46,608 nucleotides of DNA from a virus (taxonomy: Duplodnaviria; Heunggongvirae; Uroviricota; Caudoviricetes): IMG/VR virus record IMGVR_UViG_2522572021_000005. One strand, 5' to 3'. Shown here in pieces: positions 1 to 6,000 of the stretch (positions are counted from its first letter, which is position 1; the number at the start of each line of letters is the position of its first letter). The position numbers were made by a program.

Positions 1-3000
1 TCAAATAACCAACTTAACCCATTCCTGACCTCGAGTATCGTTATAGCGATCGGTGGTTGCCTGGACTTTATGTCCTAGTAATGTTTTTGTATCGATACCC
101 TGTGCACGGTACAGCCGTTCTGATAGAGAGCGTTGTTCATGAAATGTTGGCGGAGTTTTTCCTGCTGGTGGAATTACCCCAGCCAGATCCCGTGCTTTGG
201 CAAAGTAGTCGCTCAGGTTGTCTTTACTCATCGGCTTCGGTTGTTTCTGGTGCCGACTATGGATTAGATATGGACTTAATATTCTGTCTCGGCACCCATC
301 AATAACTTCTTTTAACGTTATCCCAATGGCATCACAGCGTAGTGTAAGCGGTAACGCCAGACGCATTCCGGTTTTTCCCTGGGTGATATGCAAGTGTTCG
401 TTCCACACATCTGAAAAACGCATGTGGCAAATGTCATCACGGCGCTGACCAGTAACAATCGCAAGAAGCATTGCGTTACGGATAAAGTGTTTTTCAGGCG
501 TTGCGTTGTAAATTTTTTGCCAGTCTTCCAGGGTGAGCCTGGCTCTAGTTACTTTAGGGATCGGTTTACGGGTAGCCTCCGGAGGATTCCATCCAGGAGG
601 AACTTCCCCTGCATGCTGTGCTTCTTTATAAATATCAACCCATAATCCACGATTTACTCTCGCTGTGCTGACCATGTCTTTATCCAGCCACTCATCCAGT
701 ATTAATGCAAAGTCTCTTACTTCCAGTTCTTTCAATGGGTGGTTTCCCAGACGGGAAACCAGGTATGCAGCCATTCGGGCTTTTTCTTTGTGAGTTGTAG
801 CTGCAATATCTCCATTTTTCAGTCGCGTGTCCTGTATTTTCAGATATCGATCAACCCATGCCTTTAATCTGATACCCCGACGCTTTGTTGCTGACGGACT
901 TTCATCAATTTTGCGCATGAAATATTCAGCCTCTGCTGCAGCTATTCGCTGATTGGCTGTGGAAGCGATTTTTTCTGCCTTACCTTTGTCTGTTCCGAGC
1001 CCGTGAAATTTTCCAGTCACAGGGTTTTTATACTGGTAGTAAACTCTGCCAGTTCTGCGATCAAATTTTTCGTAAAGTCCGGCTACGTCAGTGCTGTTTT
1101 TTCGTGGCCTCGGTGACATGAGTTAAAATCTCCTTCAGTGCATCATCATCGCCAGTATGAATTTCCGGCGCAATTCCTGTTTCACCAGGTCCAACAAATA
1201 CTGCTCGGCGATCTATCAGCCAACGCCCACGAATTTTTTGTGGTCTTGGAACGATGTATCCTAGTTTTCCGTATTTCACCAGGGTAGTGTTTGTTATTGG
1301 GAGACTGAACCGTTTTGGCTTCCACTCATCGAGCGTTATCAGGTACTGTTCGCTCATGGCTATCACTCCGGAACGCGCCAGTTGCAGAATACCAACGACA
1401 ACTGGCGACGGTTGAACATTAAAAATCAGCCTGACTCGGGATCAGTTTTTGCCAGATAACTGAAACGTATTTTGCCTGATAACGGGCGTCATCAAGTGCA
1501 TTATGGCGCTCACCTTCGAATGGAATAGCCGTTCTGGCATCGAAGTCTATGGCTTTCCCCAGCTCAACGATTGTGCGTACATCGCGATCGTTGTAGTAAC
1601 GCCACGGGCAGGGGATCCCCTGCCGTTCGTATGAACGGCGCAAAATCGTGTTATCGAAGTTGGCTCCATTTCCCCAGACCTGAACAAAAAATTCACCGGA
1701 GTTTTCGTCGATAAATTCCCGCAATTGTAACAGTGCATCATCTAACGGGATTTCATCGGTCATAATGGCAGATTGCGCTTCGCGTGATTGCTTAAGCCAC
1801 CATTTAATGGTGTCCCGATCAATGACTCCGCCAGCAGTTTCCAGATCGATAGTCTTACTAAATTCCGGTCCCATATCTCCGGTTTGCGGATCGAAAAATA
1901 TTGCACCTATTGAGATGATCGGGGCATCAGGATTTTTTCCCATGGTTTCAAGGTCGATCATTAGATGGTCACACGTCCTGCTGGTGGATGTGATTTCTTG
2001 ATGACCGTTCACCTTAATTGAGTGATCTGCCGTCTCGCCAGTTTCATTATCGCTATCGTGATGCTGATTGCCGCCAGTGTTCTCCTTGTGTGGATGTTCA
2101 GCGCCTTCCATTTTCTCCGGATCATCTTCCTGAACTTCAACCTGATACTCTTCATCGAATGTTTCCTGGTATGTTGCGTCGCCCATCACCGCGCCACAAT
2201 CAGGGCAGTTGCCGCCGCCGGTCTGACCGCAGGCGGTGCAGGCTTTTTCCACTTCCTGTTGCGCCACTGGTTCAGGCTGTTTCGTTTCTGGCTCGTTTTG
2301 TAACGCATTTGGGCTGTTTTGTTCCGCTTTTTGGTAGTTCCGTTCCGATTCATGCTGGTTCTGGTTTACAGAATCGCGGGTCTGGATCCCCTTAACCCAT
2401 TTCGGATCATTCGGGTCGCTAATCCCTGCAACAAATTCTCCGCGAGAGGCAGCAAGCAACTTATCGGCGTCAGGCTGGCTGATATTGGCTGCCTGCATAA
2501 TTTTGTTTACTTCGTCAGCGGTAACTTTTACCGGCTCTGGTTGTGCGGTCGTGTCAGATGCACCAGTATTTTGTTGTGAACCTGAGTACGTGCCGTTTTT
2601 ACGTGCGAAGTATTCCTCTTTTGTGATTTCCGTAGCTCCCAAGGCTAGTGCTTTTTCCAGACCAGAAAGTTTGTTTGCGCGACCGTATTTTTCGCCATCC
2701 TTGTCGGTGAAGAGGAAGTAGAACGGCCCCTCACGCTCTACAGATGGTTCGACTTCCACTTTGCATTCGGTTTTTTCGTTGCCCGGAATTGCCGTTTCCA
2801 CTGCATCAGTTTCTGGTACTGGCGACGAGAGAGTATCAGTTGCGCTCTGATTTCTTCCTTCATCTTCAAACACGCCCTTTGTAGTCAGGTATTCAGTAAT
2901 GTATTTGTTCAGTGCCACAGGGTCTTTGTGAATGTCGATCGGACGTTCACGGACAAGGCCAAAAATAGTCTGGCGGTCGTAGCGAAGGGCATCAGGCTGT

Positions 3001-6000
3001 TTGCGCATTGATGCCGAGATACGCTTCCAGTCTTCGCGGTCGTTGTCGATAACTTCATTTTTTGCCCAGCGATGGATGCTGCCGTCAATGTTTCCGGCAT
3101 CCACATCACCAGGCCAGAGAGCGTAGGCCAGTTCTTCATCCAGCGTTTTCCATGTCTGCTTGTATTCGCGACAAATGGCGGCAGTGACTGGGTTGATTTT
3201 TCCTGCTGAGTTTTCAGTGTTCTGTTGATTGACTCTGGCGCTGGCGAGATCAACAACAGACGTGTATTTTCCAGTCTCTTTGCGCTCTGCGTCCTGCCGT
3301 TTTTTCCAGTTACGTAATTCAGCCTGAATTTCGGGCCATTTGGTACCCGGCTTACATTTGTGTTTAACCCATCCGATAGCGAACAGTTTGCGTTCCGGAT
3401 ACATAGCGTTAATTTCAGGCGTTTTCATCAGTGCTTCAACGATATGCCCGTCAAAGGTAGCAACGTCTTCCTGCAGTAATTCCTGCGCGTCAATCGCCAT
3501 ATCAACGGTGATGTTTTCACATGTACCGAACTTAACCAGGACCGCGTTCTGTACTTCAAGGGACAGCTTGTCAAAATTGACGTTCATCGGATCGGATTCT
3601 GGTTCGACCGGAATAAAGGAAGCGGATTCCTCATCCCAGCGGTTTTCCTGCATATATTCAGCATCCCAGGAATCGAGGGCAGGGCGGGGTATACCGGGTT
3701 TATCCTCGCAGACAAGAAATTTATAAGCGCAGTCCTGAGCAGCCGGATAATGTTCCAGGAATTGCCAGTGAAATTTTGCGCGGGCGCGACGTTCATCACC
3801 GGCTTCAATGGCAGTGGCTACAGCGACGGCACCTTCTTCCTTTATTGCCTGTTCGTCCGGAATGGCGGCGCAAATAAAGACTTTACTCATTTTGTTTTAA
3901 CCTCATTACAGATTTCAGGGTGAACGAATCCCTGCCATTGCTGGCATTTTTAATCCGTTGGTATGGCGTTAATATGGCTGGCGGGTTATCCAGCCGGTAT
4001 TTCGTTATTCAGGTTCAGCGATACTTTTTTTAACGGGAGGCATTCACCGGGGATTTTTTGTTCGTCCCTTACCTGAATGCAGGATGACTTACTGTCATAA
4101 ATTCCGGTAATCACATTTTGTGGCTCACCCGTTATAAGAAAAACGGTCATCACCAGTGCAAATGCTGAAGTCACTGCTGTTCTCCGATAATACCAAGTTC
4201 AAGAAGGGCAATTCTGGAAAGTATGGAATTATCATTGAGAAGATAAGGTTCATATTTTCTCATCTTAATGGCATCTTCCGTAAACTCCCGGTTACTGAGC
4301 AGAACACCAATATCAAAACAACCTTCAGACGTATTAACGTTTGGTAATAACGTTTCCATTATCGCGTCCTCAACAATGAATTTTGTGATGCGGTGCCTGG
4401 TGCCTCCAGGTGACGTTAACCAGTTAACAATTAACGCCGGATACAGAGAATCCACCCATAACACTGTTTTTGGTTTTAACTGTTCCGCGTGCGCTCAGCC
4501 GCATTCACCACATCACAAAATTCACTTTAAAAAGGGCGGCAGAGCAGTCACGGAGTAAAACTGATACCGCCAAACGTCACCAGAAAATTGATAACAGAGG
4601 GCGTTGCAGCGGGGTTGTCACTTAAGCGTATGGTCAACCTGACAACCCGGTGTCCTCAACGGGGAAGGAATAACCCCTCCATACTTACCGCCGCGCCATT
4701 TCGCGGATTGCCACAACCGGAAGCGCACGGTCGACGAAAATTTAACGACAGGCTATCTATGAACCAGCTACCTCGCCGTGCGCTTTCGCGTTATGGTCTG
4801 ACTTTTCAGAGAAATATCCTTTCAGTAAACTGTCAGTGCCGGATGTTCACCCGTGTCCGGCGCACGCACTCCACTTCACCCGTGGAGAACTCCTTAATTA
4901 CCAACCCTCAGGAGGGTGAATGTTAAAATCAACTCTTATTGCTAAATGCCTTTATCAAAATCGCATGGTAAGCAGCATTTCAATAGGCGAGTCTGCAGTT
5001 AAAAGTATTTTCGAAGAGTACTTTCCCGGGCATGATTTTAATAAATGGAATACCAAATTACCGCCAGCAGTTTCAACGCGTATTCTGAAAGCAACCGAAA
5101 GAGCAAGTACAATTCGCGTTAACTATTTCATTAAAGATTTGTGGGATCTTTGATATCCACAGAGCCTAAAGTATGTGCATATGGATGTGCTATTATGCGC
5201 CCTCGCAGATTTGCATCATTTTCTAAATTCACTGAACGAAACAGGGCATCAACAAGGCTCTGTACAATGCAAAGGCAATCGAAGACTGTCGCCGTTTCTG
5301 TTTTGATTGATGAAAGAACATGGCCATTCACGCAAACAGAAATTACCCGTTTATTAACATCGCTTTCCTGCTTTTGATTATCAGAACCATATAGCCCAGA
5401 AAAAGCATTGCGCACATTACGAACCATATTATCGATGGTTTCTTTTTCTGCGGTACTAAGGTCAAGAGTAGCCAGTTGTGAACGAACTATATTCGATGCC
5501 ATTTCCTGTAATGGCGTTGGTAAATCTTTAAATTCCATTATTAGCCTCGTTGGTTAGCTATTAACGTGGGTATGTAATCATTCTGGCAATGCTTAATGCC
5601 GCTGCTTTTTCCAGATTGGTGATATCCTGCTCCAGAGCGGACAGATTTTCAGCCTGCTTAGCCCTGGCTTCATTGGCCCATTTCAGGTCCTGCACCGCCT
5701 TAATTTTCTGGTGCATCCACTCATAAAGTTCATCATCGGTATAGTCTGGCGCGATGATGACGGGGTCTCGTTTCTGCATGTCGGCTCCTTGTGGTTAGCG
5801 TTGCCTGCTTTTTAACCACGTCAGGCGAGGTGGTATCCTCTGAGGGGTCTGTTACTCGAGAGGAAATTGGTTATGAATACAATCAAGTTTTCTTGCCCAG
5901 AATGTGGTGGCTAAGTCTTTGACACATCCTTTAAGCCGCAGGGCTCTGACAGTTTCGCGGGAGCCATCTGCAAAAATTGTGGTCACCTTGTAACTGAAGA

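What the first reader, a model, noticed from the sequence alone, without database searches (positions are those of the whole stretch)
1419..3890. RecE-like exonuclease with a DnaQ-type (DEDDh) C-terminal domain and no adjacent annealing protein
The 823-aa protein shares a central RecE-like segment (by recall) but its C-terminus carries DLETMG and HNALDDARY motifs typical of 3'-5' DEDDh exonucleases, rather than the PD-(D/E)XK 5'-3' nuclease of canonical RecE. No RecT/Bet-like annealase gene is present between it and xis or upstream. This suggests a domain-swapped recombination or anti-defence nuclease of unclear polarity and partner.
Basis: partly seen in the sequence, partly recalled or inferred. 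Interest (0 to 1): 0.55.

Follow-up and report, generated by a model that had tools for sequence, protein, structure and literature searches.

The report
RecE-like phage protein with 3'-5' exonuclease
This prophage gene encodes a common but functionally untested E. coli phage protein that has the non-catalytic body of the RecE recombination nuclease but a 3'-5' DnaQ-type exonuclease at its end, and versions built this way are never found next to a strand-annealing partner gene.

Summary

It is not new. It is the intact form of the K-12 pseudogene ydfE (87% identity over 256 aa). RefSeq, PHROGs and Pfam already hold it, and similar DNA covering at least 80% of the gene is in 3511 of 5426 complete E. 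coli genomes. Working phages such as Tritos carry it, and Zheng et al. 2025 list Tritos as the prototype of a "nuclease only, no annealase" recombination module.

What this work adds:
- Both N-terminal types (RecE-type and YdfE-type) occur with both nuclease types.
- 0 of about 124 DEDDh loci have an annealase, whereas all 12 testable PD-(D/E)XK loci have recT directly downstream.
- The model is small folded domains joined by long low-confidence linkers, and the gene is under purifying selection.

The function is untested. Most likely it is a 3'-5' DNA exonuclease that works without an annealase and is made on prophage derepression. An anti-T4 role like that of EcD is a weaker rival.

The parts
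1419..3890 (-). Complete gene for the 823-aa YdfE-type exonuclease (stop codon 1419-1421)
   Evidence: ORF. RefSeq CDS WP_025404296.1 'exonuclease'. PHROG 2082 matches end to end.
3594..3890 (-). aa 1-99: N-terminal segment, low model confidence but strongly conserved
   Evidence: pLDDT below 50-56, yet dN/dS is 0.05-0.06 at dS 0.5-0.7. It is part of Pfam YdfE_N; names and architecture come from precomputed hits on near-identical proteins.
3261..3593 (-). aa 100-210: helical domain D1, the core of the YdfE_N-type N-terminus
   Evidence: pLDDT 92-98. dN/dS 0.10-0.12. aa 1-256 are 87% identical to the IS2-truncated K-12 ydfE pseudogene.
2856..3173 (-). aa 240-345: helical domain D2 ('module B'), shared with RecE 278-360 and with many shorter module-B + DEDDh proteins
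   Evidence: pLDDT 95-98. phmmer module map. Alignment A4 includes RecE. No solved relative by sequence.
2586..2738 (-). aa 385-435: small beta-beta-alpha-beta-alpha domain D3
   Evidence: pLDDT 95-97. dN/dS 0.04-0.06 at dS 0.6-0.9.
2016..3107 (-). aa 262-625: segment homologous to the non-catalytic centre of Rac RecE (RecE 278-591)
   Evidence: BLASTP E 2e-62. NCBIfam NF007259 model positions 267-602 only.
2196..2240 (-). aa 551-565: Cys4 zinc ribbon (C551, C554, C562, C565), conserved in RecE
   Evidence: Motif positions. Aligned with the RecE CNACG...CPDCG motif. pLDDT about 70.
1974..2186 (-). aa 569-639: acidic, low-confidence linker between the body and the nuclease
   Evidence: pLDDT 31-37. 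The aa 470-640 region has net charge -21.
1422..1973 (-). aa 640-823: DEDDh 3'-5' exonuclease domain (Rv2179c/DexA family); catalytic D646, E648, D746, H796, D801
3986..4585 (-). Upstream genes of the same leftward operon: DUF1482/ydfD-type gene (3986-4174), dicB (4171-4359), DicF sRNA (4534-4585)
   Evidence: Pfam DUF1482 and DicB. Rfam DicF 76.7 bits. Same gene order as K-12 Qin dicF-dicB-ydfD-ydfE.
1..1357 (-). Downstream genes xis (1088-1357) and int (1-1119); no gene lies between the exonuclease and xis
   Evidence: Annotation. Pfam Exc.
6416..6823 (-). DicA/CI-like HTH repressor gene upstream of the leftward operon
   Evidence: Pfam HTH_3 and Phage_CI_repr. It is the same length (408 nt) and occupies the same position as K-12 dicA.

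Best explanation
What is shown. The gene is the intact version of ydfE, the last gene before xis and int in the leftward dicF-dicB-ydfD-type operon of a Qin/Tritos-like lambdoid prophage. The protein is modular. It has a non-catalytic body made of three small folded domains and a zinc ribbon, separated by low-confidence linkers, and part of this body is homologous to the function-unknown N-terminal two-thirds of RecE. An acidic, probably flexible linker of about 70 residues joins the body to a catalytically intact DEDDh exonuclease of the DexA/Rv2179c family. In this gene family the nuclease module has been exchanged between a 5'-3' PD-(D/E)XK type, which always has recT next door, and this 3'-5' DEDDh type, which never has an annealase. 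The gene is under purifying selection and occurs in plaque-forming phages.

What is inferred. The enzyme removes nucleotides from 3' ends, most likely of DNA, because its nearest characterised relative is the DNase DexA and its closest stand-alone relative sits inside a phage recombination module. It is made when the prophage repressor is lifted or during lytic growth, not in the quiet lysogen. It does not act as a two-component exonuclease/annealase recombinase. Instead it works alone or with host proteins. One possibility is trimming 3' tails on linear phage or competing DNA so that host pathways, such as RecBCD which needs near-blunt ends, can act. The RecE/YdfE body supplies targeting or partner binding that does not depend on nuclease polarity.
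For: Domain identity and intact active site.

Homology of the body to RecE 278-591 and to K-12 YdfE.

The RecE N-terminal domain has no known function (PMC11611040).

All four N-terminus/nuclease combinations exist: RecE_N + DEDDh in P0004, P0007, P0014, P0016, P0018, P0028 and P0042; YdfE_N + PD-(D/E)XK in P0020, L021, L106 and L107.

Covariation with the annealase:
- 0 of 8 DEDDh loci and 0 of 116 DEDDh viral-contig loci have RecT, Erf, Bet, lambda Exo, Gam or Abc2. The 121 full-length proteins fall into about 8-10 body-sequence clusters.
- recT lies immediately downstream in 10 of 10 and 2 of 2 testable PD-(D/E)XK loci. The L008 downstream gene is Pfam RecT, E 2e-36.
- The larger ORFs of four diverged DEDDh loci show no annealase family in Pfam, and those of three of them none in PHROGs.

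Link to recombination: the closest stand-alone homologue (59% identity) lies inside an Erf-SSB-HNH-exonuclease-Abc2 module in phage Bas106. Zheng et al. 2025 list DnaQ-like nucleases as Rec-module members and give Tritos as the prototype of a nuclease-only type. Tritos carries an 823-aa homologue in the same position.

Selection: overall dN/dS is 0.16-0.21, and 0.04-0.12 in the folded domains.

Operon position and DicA repression of dicB-ydfD-ydfE.
Against: No biochemical or genetic data exist for this protein, and substrate and polarity are inferred from family membership alone.

Rv2179c, the name-giving family member, is an exoribonuclease, so RNA is not excluded.

3'-5' DNA exonucleases usually inhibit rather than promote recombination, as PMC12315714 itself notes.

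The idea of cooperation with RecBCD fits the Chi-rich Tritos class, but this prophage has only 4 Chi sites against 1.8 expected by chance, which is not significant.

The gene stays intact in a prophage whose cro, portal and tape-measure genes are broken. That fits a benefit to the host at least as well as a role in the phage lytic cycle.

The covariation sample is dominated by closely related E. coli prophages. There are only about 5-10 independent DEDDh lineages and about 5 PD-(D/E)XK lineages.
Confidence: 0.45

Rival explanations
1. It is a prophage-encoded exclusion nuclease of the HREX type. Like the E. coli DexA homologue EcD, the DEDDh domain would spare unmodified host DNA and degrade the modified (5hmC) DNA of incoming T-even phages. 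The gene would then persist in defective prophages because it protects the host.
For: EcD, from the same PF16473/DexA family, cleaves 5hmC DNA and protects E. coli against T4 even at leaky expression (PMC12153337).

I recovered an EcD-type protein from the paper's primer sequence. It is 189 aa, has A78 as the paper states, and lies in a P2-like prophage.

The window gene is intact in an otherwise decaying prophage. Similar DNA is present in 4800 of 5426 complete E. coli genomes, at a median of two places per genome. It is under purifying selection.
Against: EcD is only 38.8% identical to this domain and is a stand-alone protein.

The residues that define EcD behaviour do not carry over. DexA D90 is Ala in EcD but Asp (D718) here. 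The 5hmC-stacking W152 is Tyr (Y766) here. The equivalent of D169 cannot be aligned reliably.

The gene sits at the far end of a repressor-controlled early operon, with no promoter-like site directly upstream of it. Constitutive expression in lysogens is therefore not expected.

PADLOC finds only a weak generic DEDDh match.

The 640-aa RecE-like body has no role in this model.
Confidence: 0.2
2. It is an RNA exonuclease, as the Pfam and NCBI names suggest. It would trim or degrade RNA 3' ends, for example phage or host transcripts, short oligoribonucleotides, or the operon's own DicF sRNA.
Against: The top match by both sequence and structure is the DNase T4 DexA. RNase T and REXO2 also act on DNA. 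The body is shared with a dsDNA exonuclease, RecE. The nearest stand-alone homologue lies in a DNA recombination module.
Confidence: 0.1
3. It is a counter-defence or host-takeover nuclease. It would destroy a host nucleic-acid component such as retron msDNA, signalling oligonucleotides or host 3' ends, or its acidic linker would act as a DNA mimic that blocks RecBCD in phages lacking Gam or Abc2.
For: DEDDh loci never carry Gam or Abc2. Zheng et al. place the nuclease-only type among phages without an anti-RecBCD function. The aa 470-640 region is strongly acidic, with net charge -21, and is predicted to be disordered. Cap18 and Cas2-DEDDh, which are defence-associated DEDDh enzymes, are structural neighbours.
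Against: This rests only on circumstance. No defence or anti-defence family matches. RecE has the same acidic region, and RecE is not known to inhibit RecBCD.
Confidence: 0.1
4. It is a decaying remnant with no current function, kept only because prophage DNA is slow to erode.
For: This prophage is defective: cro, portal, tail chaperone and tape-measure genes are frameshifted and the lysis genes are missing. The K-12 copy is a pseudogene. Copies L013 and L020 are degraded.
Against: The 823-codon frame is intact and all catalytic residues are present. dN/dS is 0.16-0.21 overall and as low as 0.04 in the folded domains. Functional phages carry it. 68 of 122 DEDDh proteins recovered are exactly 823 aa.
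Confidence: 0.03

Closest known systems
RecE (exonuclease VIII) of the Rac prophage, partner of RecT
   Same: Both occupy the same place in the prophage, as a large gene late in the early-left operon near xis and int. Residues 262-625 are homologous to RecE 278-591, including helical module B, the Cys4 zinc ribbon and the acidic linker ahead of the nuclease. The body has no known function in either protein.
   Different: The C-terminal nuclease is DEDDh (3'-5') rather than PD-(D/E)XK (5'-3'). The N-terminus is YdfE_N rather than PF06630. There is no recT downstream. The score is far below the NCBIfam RecE equivalog cut-off.
YdfE of the K-12 Qin prophage (pseudogene b1577); Pfam YdfE_N (PF27430) and YdfE_C (PF27432); PHROG 2082
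   Same: aa 1-256 are 87% identical to K-12 ydfE. The operon order dicF-dicB-ydfD-ydfE-(xis)-int is the same. Near-identical proteins carry the precomputed architecture PF27430 + PF27432 + PF16473. PHROG 2082 matches residues 1-823.
   Different: The K-12 copy is cut by IS2 after about 256 codons and has lost module B, the zinc ribbon and the nuclease. The window copy is complete.
T4 DexA (exonuclease A; PDB 8KEL and 8KEN)
   Different: Identity is about 28% (tblastn). DexA is a 227-aa stand-alone protein with extra loops. Its 5hmC-recognition W152 is Tyr here, and D169 lies in a DexA-specific insertion.
EcD, the 'HREX' anti-T4 exonuclease of E. coli (PMC12153337)
   Same: It belongs to the same Pfam family (PF16473), is also prophage-borne, and is also found in E. 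coli.
   Different: Identity is 38.8%. EcD is a 189-aa stand-alone protein in a P2-like prophage next to a Dam methylase. EcD has Ala at the DexA D90 position and keeps Trp at W152. The window protein has Asp (D718) and Tyr (Y766).
'Tritos-type' lambdoid Rec module and the DnaQ-like Rec-module nucleases (Zheng et al., Genome Res 2025, PMC12315714)
   Same: Tritos encodes an 823-aa homologue in the same position, with 89-100% identity per module. Its class is defined as nuclease present with no annealase, SSB or anti-RecBCD protein, which matches this window's content. The 59%-identical stand-alone homologue in Bas106 is a DnaQ-like nuclease inside an Erf-SSB-HNH-exonuclease-Abc2 module.
   Different: The Tritos class is Chi-rich (7-21 top-strand sites) and this prophage is not (3 top-strand and 1 bottom-strand). 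The paper's supplement was not available, so I could not see which nuclease type it assigns to Tritos.

Membership tests
RecE / exodeoxyribonuclease VIII | C-terminal PD-(D/E)XK 5'-3' nuclease domain (Pfam PF12684/DUF3799) | tested here: not met
   K-12 RecE gives PF12684 at E 4e-28 and the query gives none. The model's C-terminal domain matches only DEDDh folds.
RecE / exodeoxyribonuclease VIII | Full-length match to the NCBIfam equivalog NF007259 (cut-off 1269 bits) | tested here: not met
   283.6 bits, covering model positions 267-602 only.
RecE / exodeoxyribonuclease VIII | N-terminal Exonuc_VIII domain (PF06630) | tested here: not met
   Absent from the query and present in K-12 RecE.
RecE / exodeoxyribonuclease VIII | Central non-catalytic region with zinc ribbon | tested here: met
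   aa 262-625 align to RecE 278-591, E 2e-62.
RecE / exodeoxyribonuclease VIII (two-component exonuclease/annealase recombinase) | Cognate single-strand annealing protein gene adjacent | tested here: not met
   No RecT, Bet or Erf in the window. None in 124 related DEDDh loci, against 12 of 12 testable PD-(D/E)XK loci.
DEDDh (DnaQ-like) exonucleases, Rv2179c/DexA family (PF16473) | Profile match above the curated threshold | tested here: met
   226.6 bits against a cut-off of 27, profile positions 2-177 of 177.
DEDDh (DnaQ-like) exonucleases, Rv2179c/DexA family (PF16473) | Catalytic Asp-Glu-Asp-His-Asp set in motifs Exo I, II and III | tested here: met
   D646, E648, D746, H796 and D801 correspond to DexA D7, E9, D119, H186 and D191 by alignment or by the H-x4-D motif. 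The paper's figure legend lists D7, 'E12', D119, D191 and H186, but residue 12 of DexA is Gly and the Glu is at position 9.
DEDDh (DnaQ-like) exonucleases, Rv2179c/DexA family (PF16473) | RNase H-like DEDDh fold | tested here: met
DEDDh (DnaQ-like) exonucleases, Rv2179c/DexA family (PF16473) | Metal-dependent 3'-5' exonuclease activity | not testable with these tools
   Needs an enzyme assay.
YdfE family (Pfam PF27430 YdfE_N + PF27432 YdfE_C) | Match to both Pfam models | tested here: inconclusive
   The local Pfam copy lacks these models. Proteins 95-99% identical to the query over aa 1-470 carry both in the precomputed table, and the names appear.
YdfE family (Pfam PF27430 YdfE_N + PF27432 YdfE_C) | Orthology to K-12 ydfE in the dicBF operon | tested here: met
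   87% identity over 256 aa. Same neighbours dicF, dicB and ydfD.
HREX / EcD anti-phage exonuclease | Loss of the DexA tetramer residue (D90 to Ala) | tested here: not met
   The window has D718 at this column. The EcD-type protein has A78.
HREX / EcD anti-phage exonuclease | 5hmC-recognition residues equivalent to DexA W152 and D169 | tested here: inconclusive
   W152 corresponds to Y766, still aromatic but not Trp. D169 lies in a DexA-specific insertion, and MAFFT places A788 there.
HREX / EcD anti-phage exonuclease | Selective cleavage of 5hmC DNA and protection against T4 | not testable with these tools
   Needs biochemical and plaque assays.
Tritos-type Rec module (Zheng et al. 2025) | Nuclease present; no annealase, SSB or anti-RecBCD gene | tested here: met
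   Window gene content. No Gam or Abc2 in related loci. The window itself was not probed for Gam, Abc2 or SSB directly; this rests on the RefSeq annotation and the family scans of the early-region ORFs.
Tritos-type Rec module (Zheng et al. 2025) | Abundant top-strand Chi sites | tested here: not met
   4 sites in 46.6 kb against 1.8 expected from shuffles; 13 of 100 shuffles reach 4.

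The most novel reading that the evidence does not exclude
The RecE/YdfE body may be a targeting platform that works with any nuclease, and phages swap opposite-polarity nucleases on and off it. The DEDDh-armed version, present in roughly two-thirds of E. coli genomes and never paired with an annealase, would then be a distinct and uncharacterised system rather than a degenerate RecE. It could be a prophage-borne 3'-end-degrading weapon against incoming or competing linear DNA, or an end-processing factor that hands phage DNA ends to host RecBCD/RecA. 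Either role would also show, for the first time, what RecE's unexplained N-terminal 600 residues do.
Probability: 0.15. Interest if true: 0.6.

Novelty: already known. Interest (0 to 1): 0.33.

Why it matters
The sequence family is catalogued, and its 'nuclease without annealase' context has been published, so the finding is not a discovery. It does point to a real gap. [quoted passage not shown]

The strict rule seen here (PD-(D/E)XK with RecT, DEDDh without) gives a clean natural experiment. The same body carries nucleases of opposite polarity, so the function of the body, which is also the unexplained N-terminal two-thirds of the widely used recombineering protein RecE, cannot depend on making 3' tails for an annealase.

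Working out what the DEDDh version does would inform three things: how phages lacking their own recombination genes replicate, how prophages and incoming phages compete, and how full-length RecE is used in DNA engineering.

Tried and rejected
- Single-sequence AlphaFold2 gave mean pLDDT 33.5 and was unusable. It was replaced by a run with a 99-sequence alignment.
- Sequence and profile searches of the N-terminal 640 aa and of module B against PDB found nothing real. The de novo TIM-barrel hits are judged spurious.
- The first homologue search returned only near-identical E. coli proteins and gave no diversity.
- Chi enrichment, expected if this prophage belonged to the Chi-rich Tritos class, was not found.
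- PADLOC gave only a weak generic DEDDh hit.
- No promoter-like site was found directly upstream of the gene.
- Literature searches for ydfE function found only operon notes. One search was wasted on 'receptor' matches.
- I considered whether the published EcD is simply the C-terminal domain of this protein. It is not. The primer-derived start (MIDTET) identifies a separate 189-aa P2-like prophage protein that is 38.8% identical.
- I did not manage to test whether the RM12581 chromosome encodes RecT or Bet in another prophage, because the E. coli collection cannot be searched by protein or restricted to one record.

Full report

Yes. Window 1419-3890 on the minus strand is an ATG-initiated ORF of 823 codons. 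The window is 100% identical to a prophage next to potC/potD in E. coli O145:H28 RM12581, where the ORF is annotated as WP_025404296.1 'exonuclease'.

Pfam finds one strong domain. PF16473 (Rv2179c-like 3'-5' exoribonuclease) covers aa 642-813 at E 2.2e-67, with a weak RNase_T match over the same stretch.

BLASTP against K-12 RecE aligns aa 262-625 to RecE 278-591 (E 2e-62). The match is very close from about aa 470 onward, including a Cys4 zinc ribbon. The NCBIfam RecE equivalog matches only that part, at 283.6 bits against a cut-off of 1269. RecE's own N-terminal domain (PF06630) and its PD-(D/E)XK nuclease (PF12684) are found in RecE but not in the query.

**2. Is there really no annealase?**

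The leftward early operon reads: HTH repressor (6416-6823), a 99-aa protein, ydfC, a 135-aa protein, DicF sRNA (4534-4585), dicB, a DUF1482/ydfD-type gene, the exonuclease, xis and int. None of the small proteins matches an annealase family in Pfam or PHROGs, and none is large enough to be one.

The rest of the window encodes replication proteins, paa, hokD/sok, a DUF968/HNH protein, RusA, Q, two tRNAs, structural genes and the effectors nleL and espN. It contains no RecT, Bet, Erf or Sak gene. The prophage is defective. Its cro, portal, tail-chaperone and tape-measure genes are frameshifted, and no lysis genes lie between Q and the terminase.

**3. What is it?**

It is the intact form of ydfE. 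The K-12 Qin prophage has the same order, dicF-dicB-ydfD-ydfE-(IS2)-intQ. Its IS2-truncated ydfE pseudogene is 87% identical to aa 1-256 of the window protein.

Near-identical database proteins carry the precomputed Pfam architecture PF27430 (YdfE_N) + PF27432 (YdfE_C) + PF16473. PHROG 2082 ('exonuclease') matches residues 1-823.

The gene is very common. Similar DNA occurs in 4800 of 5426 complete E. coli genomes, 3511 of them have a copy covering at least 80% of the gene, and the median is two places per genome. Plaque-forming phages also carry it, including Tritos, mEp460, Evi, PhiR42_1 and HannyBb.

Zheng et al. (Genome Res 2025, PMC12315714) list Tritos as the prototype of a lambdoid recombination-module type with a nuclease but no annealase, SSB or anti-RecBCD gene. 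They also report DnaQ-like 3'-5' nucleases in lambdoid recombination modules. The sequence family and its unusual context are therefore already on record. No experiment on the protein was found.

**4. Anatomy**

The MSA-based model and a phmmer module map against 150 cluster representatives agree on small folded domains joined by long low-confidence linkers:

| Residues | Feature | Model confidence |
|---|---|---|
| 1-99 | N-terminal segment | low |
| 100-210 | helical domain D1 | pLDDT 92-98 |
| 240-345 | helical domain D2, 'module B' | pLDDT 95-98 |
| 385-435 | small beta-beta-alpha-beta-alpha domain D3 | pLDDT 95-97 |
| 551-565 | zinc ribbon | about 70 |
| 569-639 | acidic linker | low |
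| 640-823 | DEDDh exonuclease domain | pLDDT 95-98 |

D2 is shared with RecE 278-360 and with many shorter proteins that combine module B with a DEDDh domain. The aa 470-640 region has net charge -21. The N-terminal 640 residues have no relative among solved structures by sequence. The review PMC11611040 states that the corresponding RecE N-terminal region has no known function.

Pairwise dN/dS against Tritos and two Escherichia species copies is 0.16-0.21 overall. It is 0.04-0.12 in aa 1-99, D1 and D3, and 0.5-0.9 in the short linkers. Synonymous divergence ranges from 0.03 in the DEDDh domain to 0.9 in D1 and D3, which shows recombination inside the gene at the linkers.

**5. Module shuffling and a strict rule**

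Pfam scans of long relatives show all four combinations:

| N-terminus | PD-(D/E)XK nuclease | DEDDh nuclease |
|---|---|---|
| RecE-type (PF06630) | RecE itself | P0004, P0007, P0014, P0016, P0018, P0028, P0042 |
| YdfE_N | P0020/L008, L021, L106, L107 | the query |

I probed loci fetched from genomes and viral contigs with tblastn. The probes were RecT (two types), Erf, lambda Bet, lambda Exo, Gam and Abc2.

- Every PD-(D/E)XK locus with enough downstream DNA has recT immediately downstream, often overlapping the stop codon. That is 10 of 10 and 2 of 2 testable. The L008 neighbour is Pfam RecT at E 2e-36.
- No DEDDh locus has any of the probes: 0 of 8 and 0 of 116.
- The 121 full-length DEDDh proteins fall into 10 clusters at 90% body identity, 8 at 70% and 5 at 50%. 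The independent sample is therefore about 5-10 lineages, not 124.
- The larger ORFs of four diverged DEDDh loci gave no annealase family in Pfam, and those of three of them none in PHROGs.

When the 5'-3' nuclease is replaced by the 3'-5' nuclease, the annealase is absent. This makes mechanistic sense. RecT needs the 3' tails that a 5'-3' resection leaves, and a 3'-5' exonuclease removes them.

**6. What does it do?**

This part is inference. The nearest characterised relative is T4 DexA, a 3'-5' DNA exonuclease, at about 28% identity by tblastn. The closest stand-alone relative (59% identity) lies inside an Erf-SSB-HNH-exonuclease-Abc2 recombination module in phage Bas106. Another (53% in the four-way alignment) lies in the N15-like phage YDC107_1.

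The gene lies at the far end of an operon that DicA represses in K-12 (PMC11430063, citing RegulonDB). No promoter-like site lies directly upstream of it. I therefore favour a 3'-5' DNA exonuclease that is made on derepression, acts without an annealase, and processes the 3' ends of linear DNA, with the RecE/YdfE body supplying targeting.

One concrete version is blunting 3' tails so that host RecBCD can load. This fits the Chi-rich Tritos class, which lacks an anti-RecBCD protein. It is weakened here because this prophage has only 4 Chi sites against 1.8 expected, which is not significant.

**7. The main rival**

Kang et al. (NAR 2025, PMC12153337) solved the DexA structure and showed that an E. 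coli homologue, EcD, cleaves only 5hmC DNA and protects cells against T4. They call this HREX.

I used the EcD primers from their supplement, whose gene-specific start translates to MIDTET, to recover the protein from viral contigs. It is 189 aa and stand-alone, has Ala at position 78 as the paper states, and lies in a P2-like prophage near cox, int and a Dam methylase.

It is only 38.8% identical to the window's domain. The window protein keeps Asp (D718) where EcD has Ala, and has Tyr (Y766) where DexA and EcD have the 5hmC-stacking Trp. The HREX result therefore concerns a paralogue and cannot simply be transferred. The retention of an intact, selected gene in a dead prophage does keep a host-protective role plausible.

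An RNA substrate, an anti-defence role and a pure relic are lesser rivals. The selection data and the intact active site largely exclude the relic.

**8. Verdict**

The novelty is low because the family, its architecture and its annealase-less context are already catalogued.

This analysis adds the four-way module shuffling, the strict coupling between nuclease type and recT, the domain map, the selection profile, and the clarification that EcD is a different protein. The function remains open and is readily testable.

Noticed in passing
window 4534-4585 (-), 4171-4359 (-), 3986-4174 (-): There is a complete Qin-type dicBF cassette directly upstream of the exonuclease: DicF sRNA (Rfam 76.7 bits), dicB and a DUF1482/ydfD-type gene. 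The mechanical ORF for dicB extends to 4464 (97 aa), whereas the annotated gene is 62 aa.
   Followed up: partly
window 1419-3890 (-), by segment: Synonymous divergence between this gene and its Tritos, E. ruysiae and E. albertii counterparts jumps from about 0.03 in the DEDDh domain to 0.7-0.9 in D1 and D3. The gene is therefore an intragenic mosaic, with breakpoints near the low-confidence linkers.
   Followed up: partly
window 6900-7126, 20170-22753, 25002-25375, 25729-28969; gap 14937-15736: The prophage is defective. Its cro, portal, tail-chaperone and tape-measure genes are annotated as frameshifted. No lysis cassette lies between Q and the small terminase, only tRNA-Ile and tRNA-Arg at 15133-15375.
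   Followed up: no
window 37578-43918 (+), with 44295-46608: A low-GC cargo region (29-37% GC, against 52-60% in the structural genes) carries the type III effectors nleL and espN, followed by a gogB fragment and IS remnants. This is an exchangeable effector locus at the prophage end.
   Followed up: no
window 10754-11512 (+) and 10061-10593 (+): The adhesin gene paa (AcfC family) and a frameshifted fimbrial gene sit between the replication genes and the nin region. This is an unusual cargo position.
   Followed up: no
window 11701-12002 (+): There is a hokD/sok type I toxin-antitoxin pair (Rfam sok 101 bits), as in K-12 Qin.
   Followed up: no
window 1980-1987 (+): One of only four Chi octamers in the window lies inside the exonuclease gene, on the opposite strand, at the boundary between the linker and the DEDDh domain. 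The scan also flags this spot as a terminator-like hairpin. It is probably coincidence.
   Followed up: no
L167:5679-6269 (-), also L149, L154, L164, L165, L170: The published 'bacterial' anti-T4 exonuclease EcD (HREX) appears to be a gene of P2-like prophages. It lies near cox, int, a DUF4406 gene and a Dam-type methylase. The paper does not mention prophage origin.
   Followed up: partly
P0010, P0015, P0023, P0035, P0055, P0082; loci L023, L108, L142: Proteins of 700-790 aa have a YdfE_N- or RecE_N-type body but no recognisable nuclease domain in Pfam, and the three loci with such genes have no neighbouring annealase. They may be the 'RecE-2' proteins that Zheng et al. mention. Their C-termini were not examined.
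   Followed up: no
window 5131-5538 (-) and 5852-6151 (-): Two conserved early-left genes (PHROG 1363 and PHROG 21318) have no known function. A small opposite-strand ORF (4920-5153) is annotated overlapping the first.
   Followed up: no
PMC12153337, Fig. 5 legend, against L005:592-1275: The DexA paper lists the catalytic glutamate as 'E12', but residue 12 of T4 DexA is Gly and the DxE glutamate is E9. This looks like a numbering slip in the paper.
   Followed up: yes
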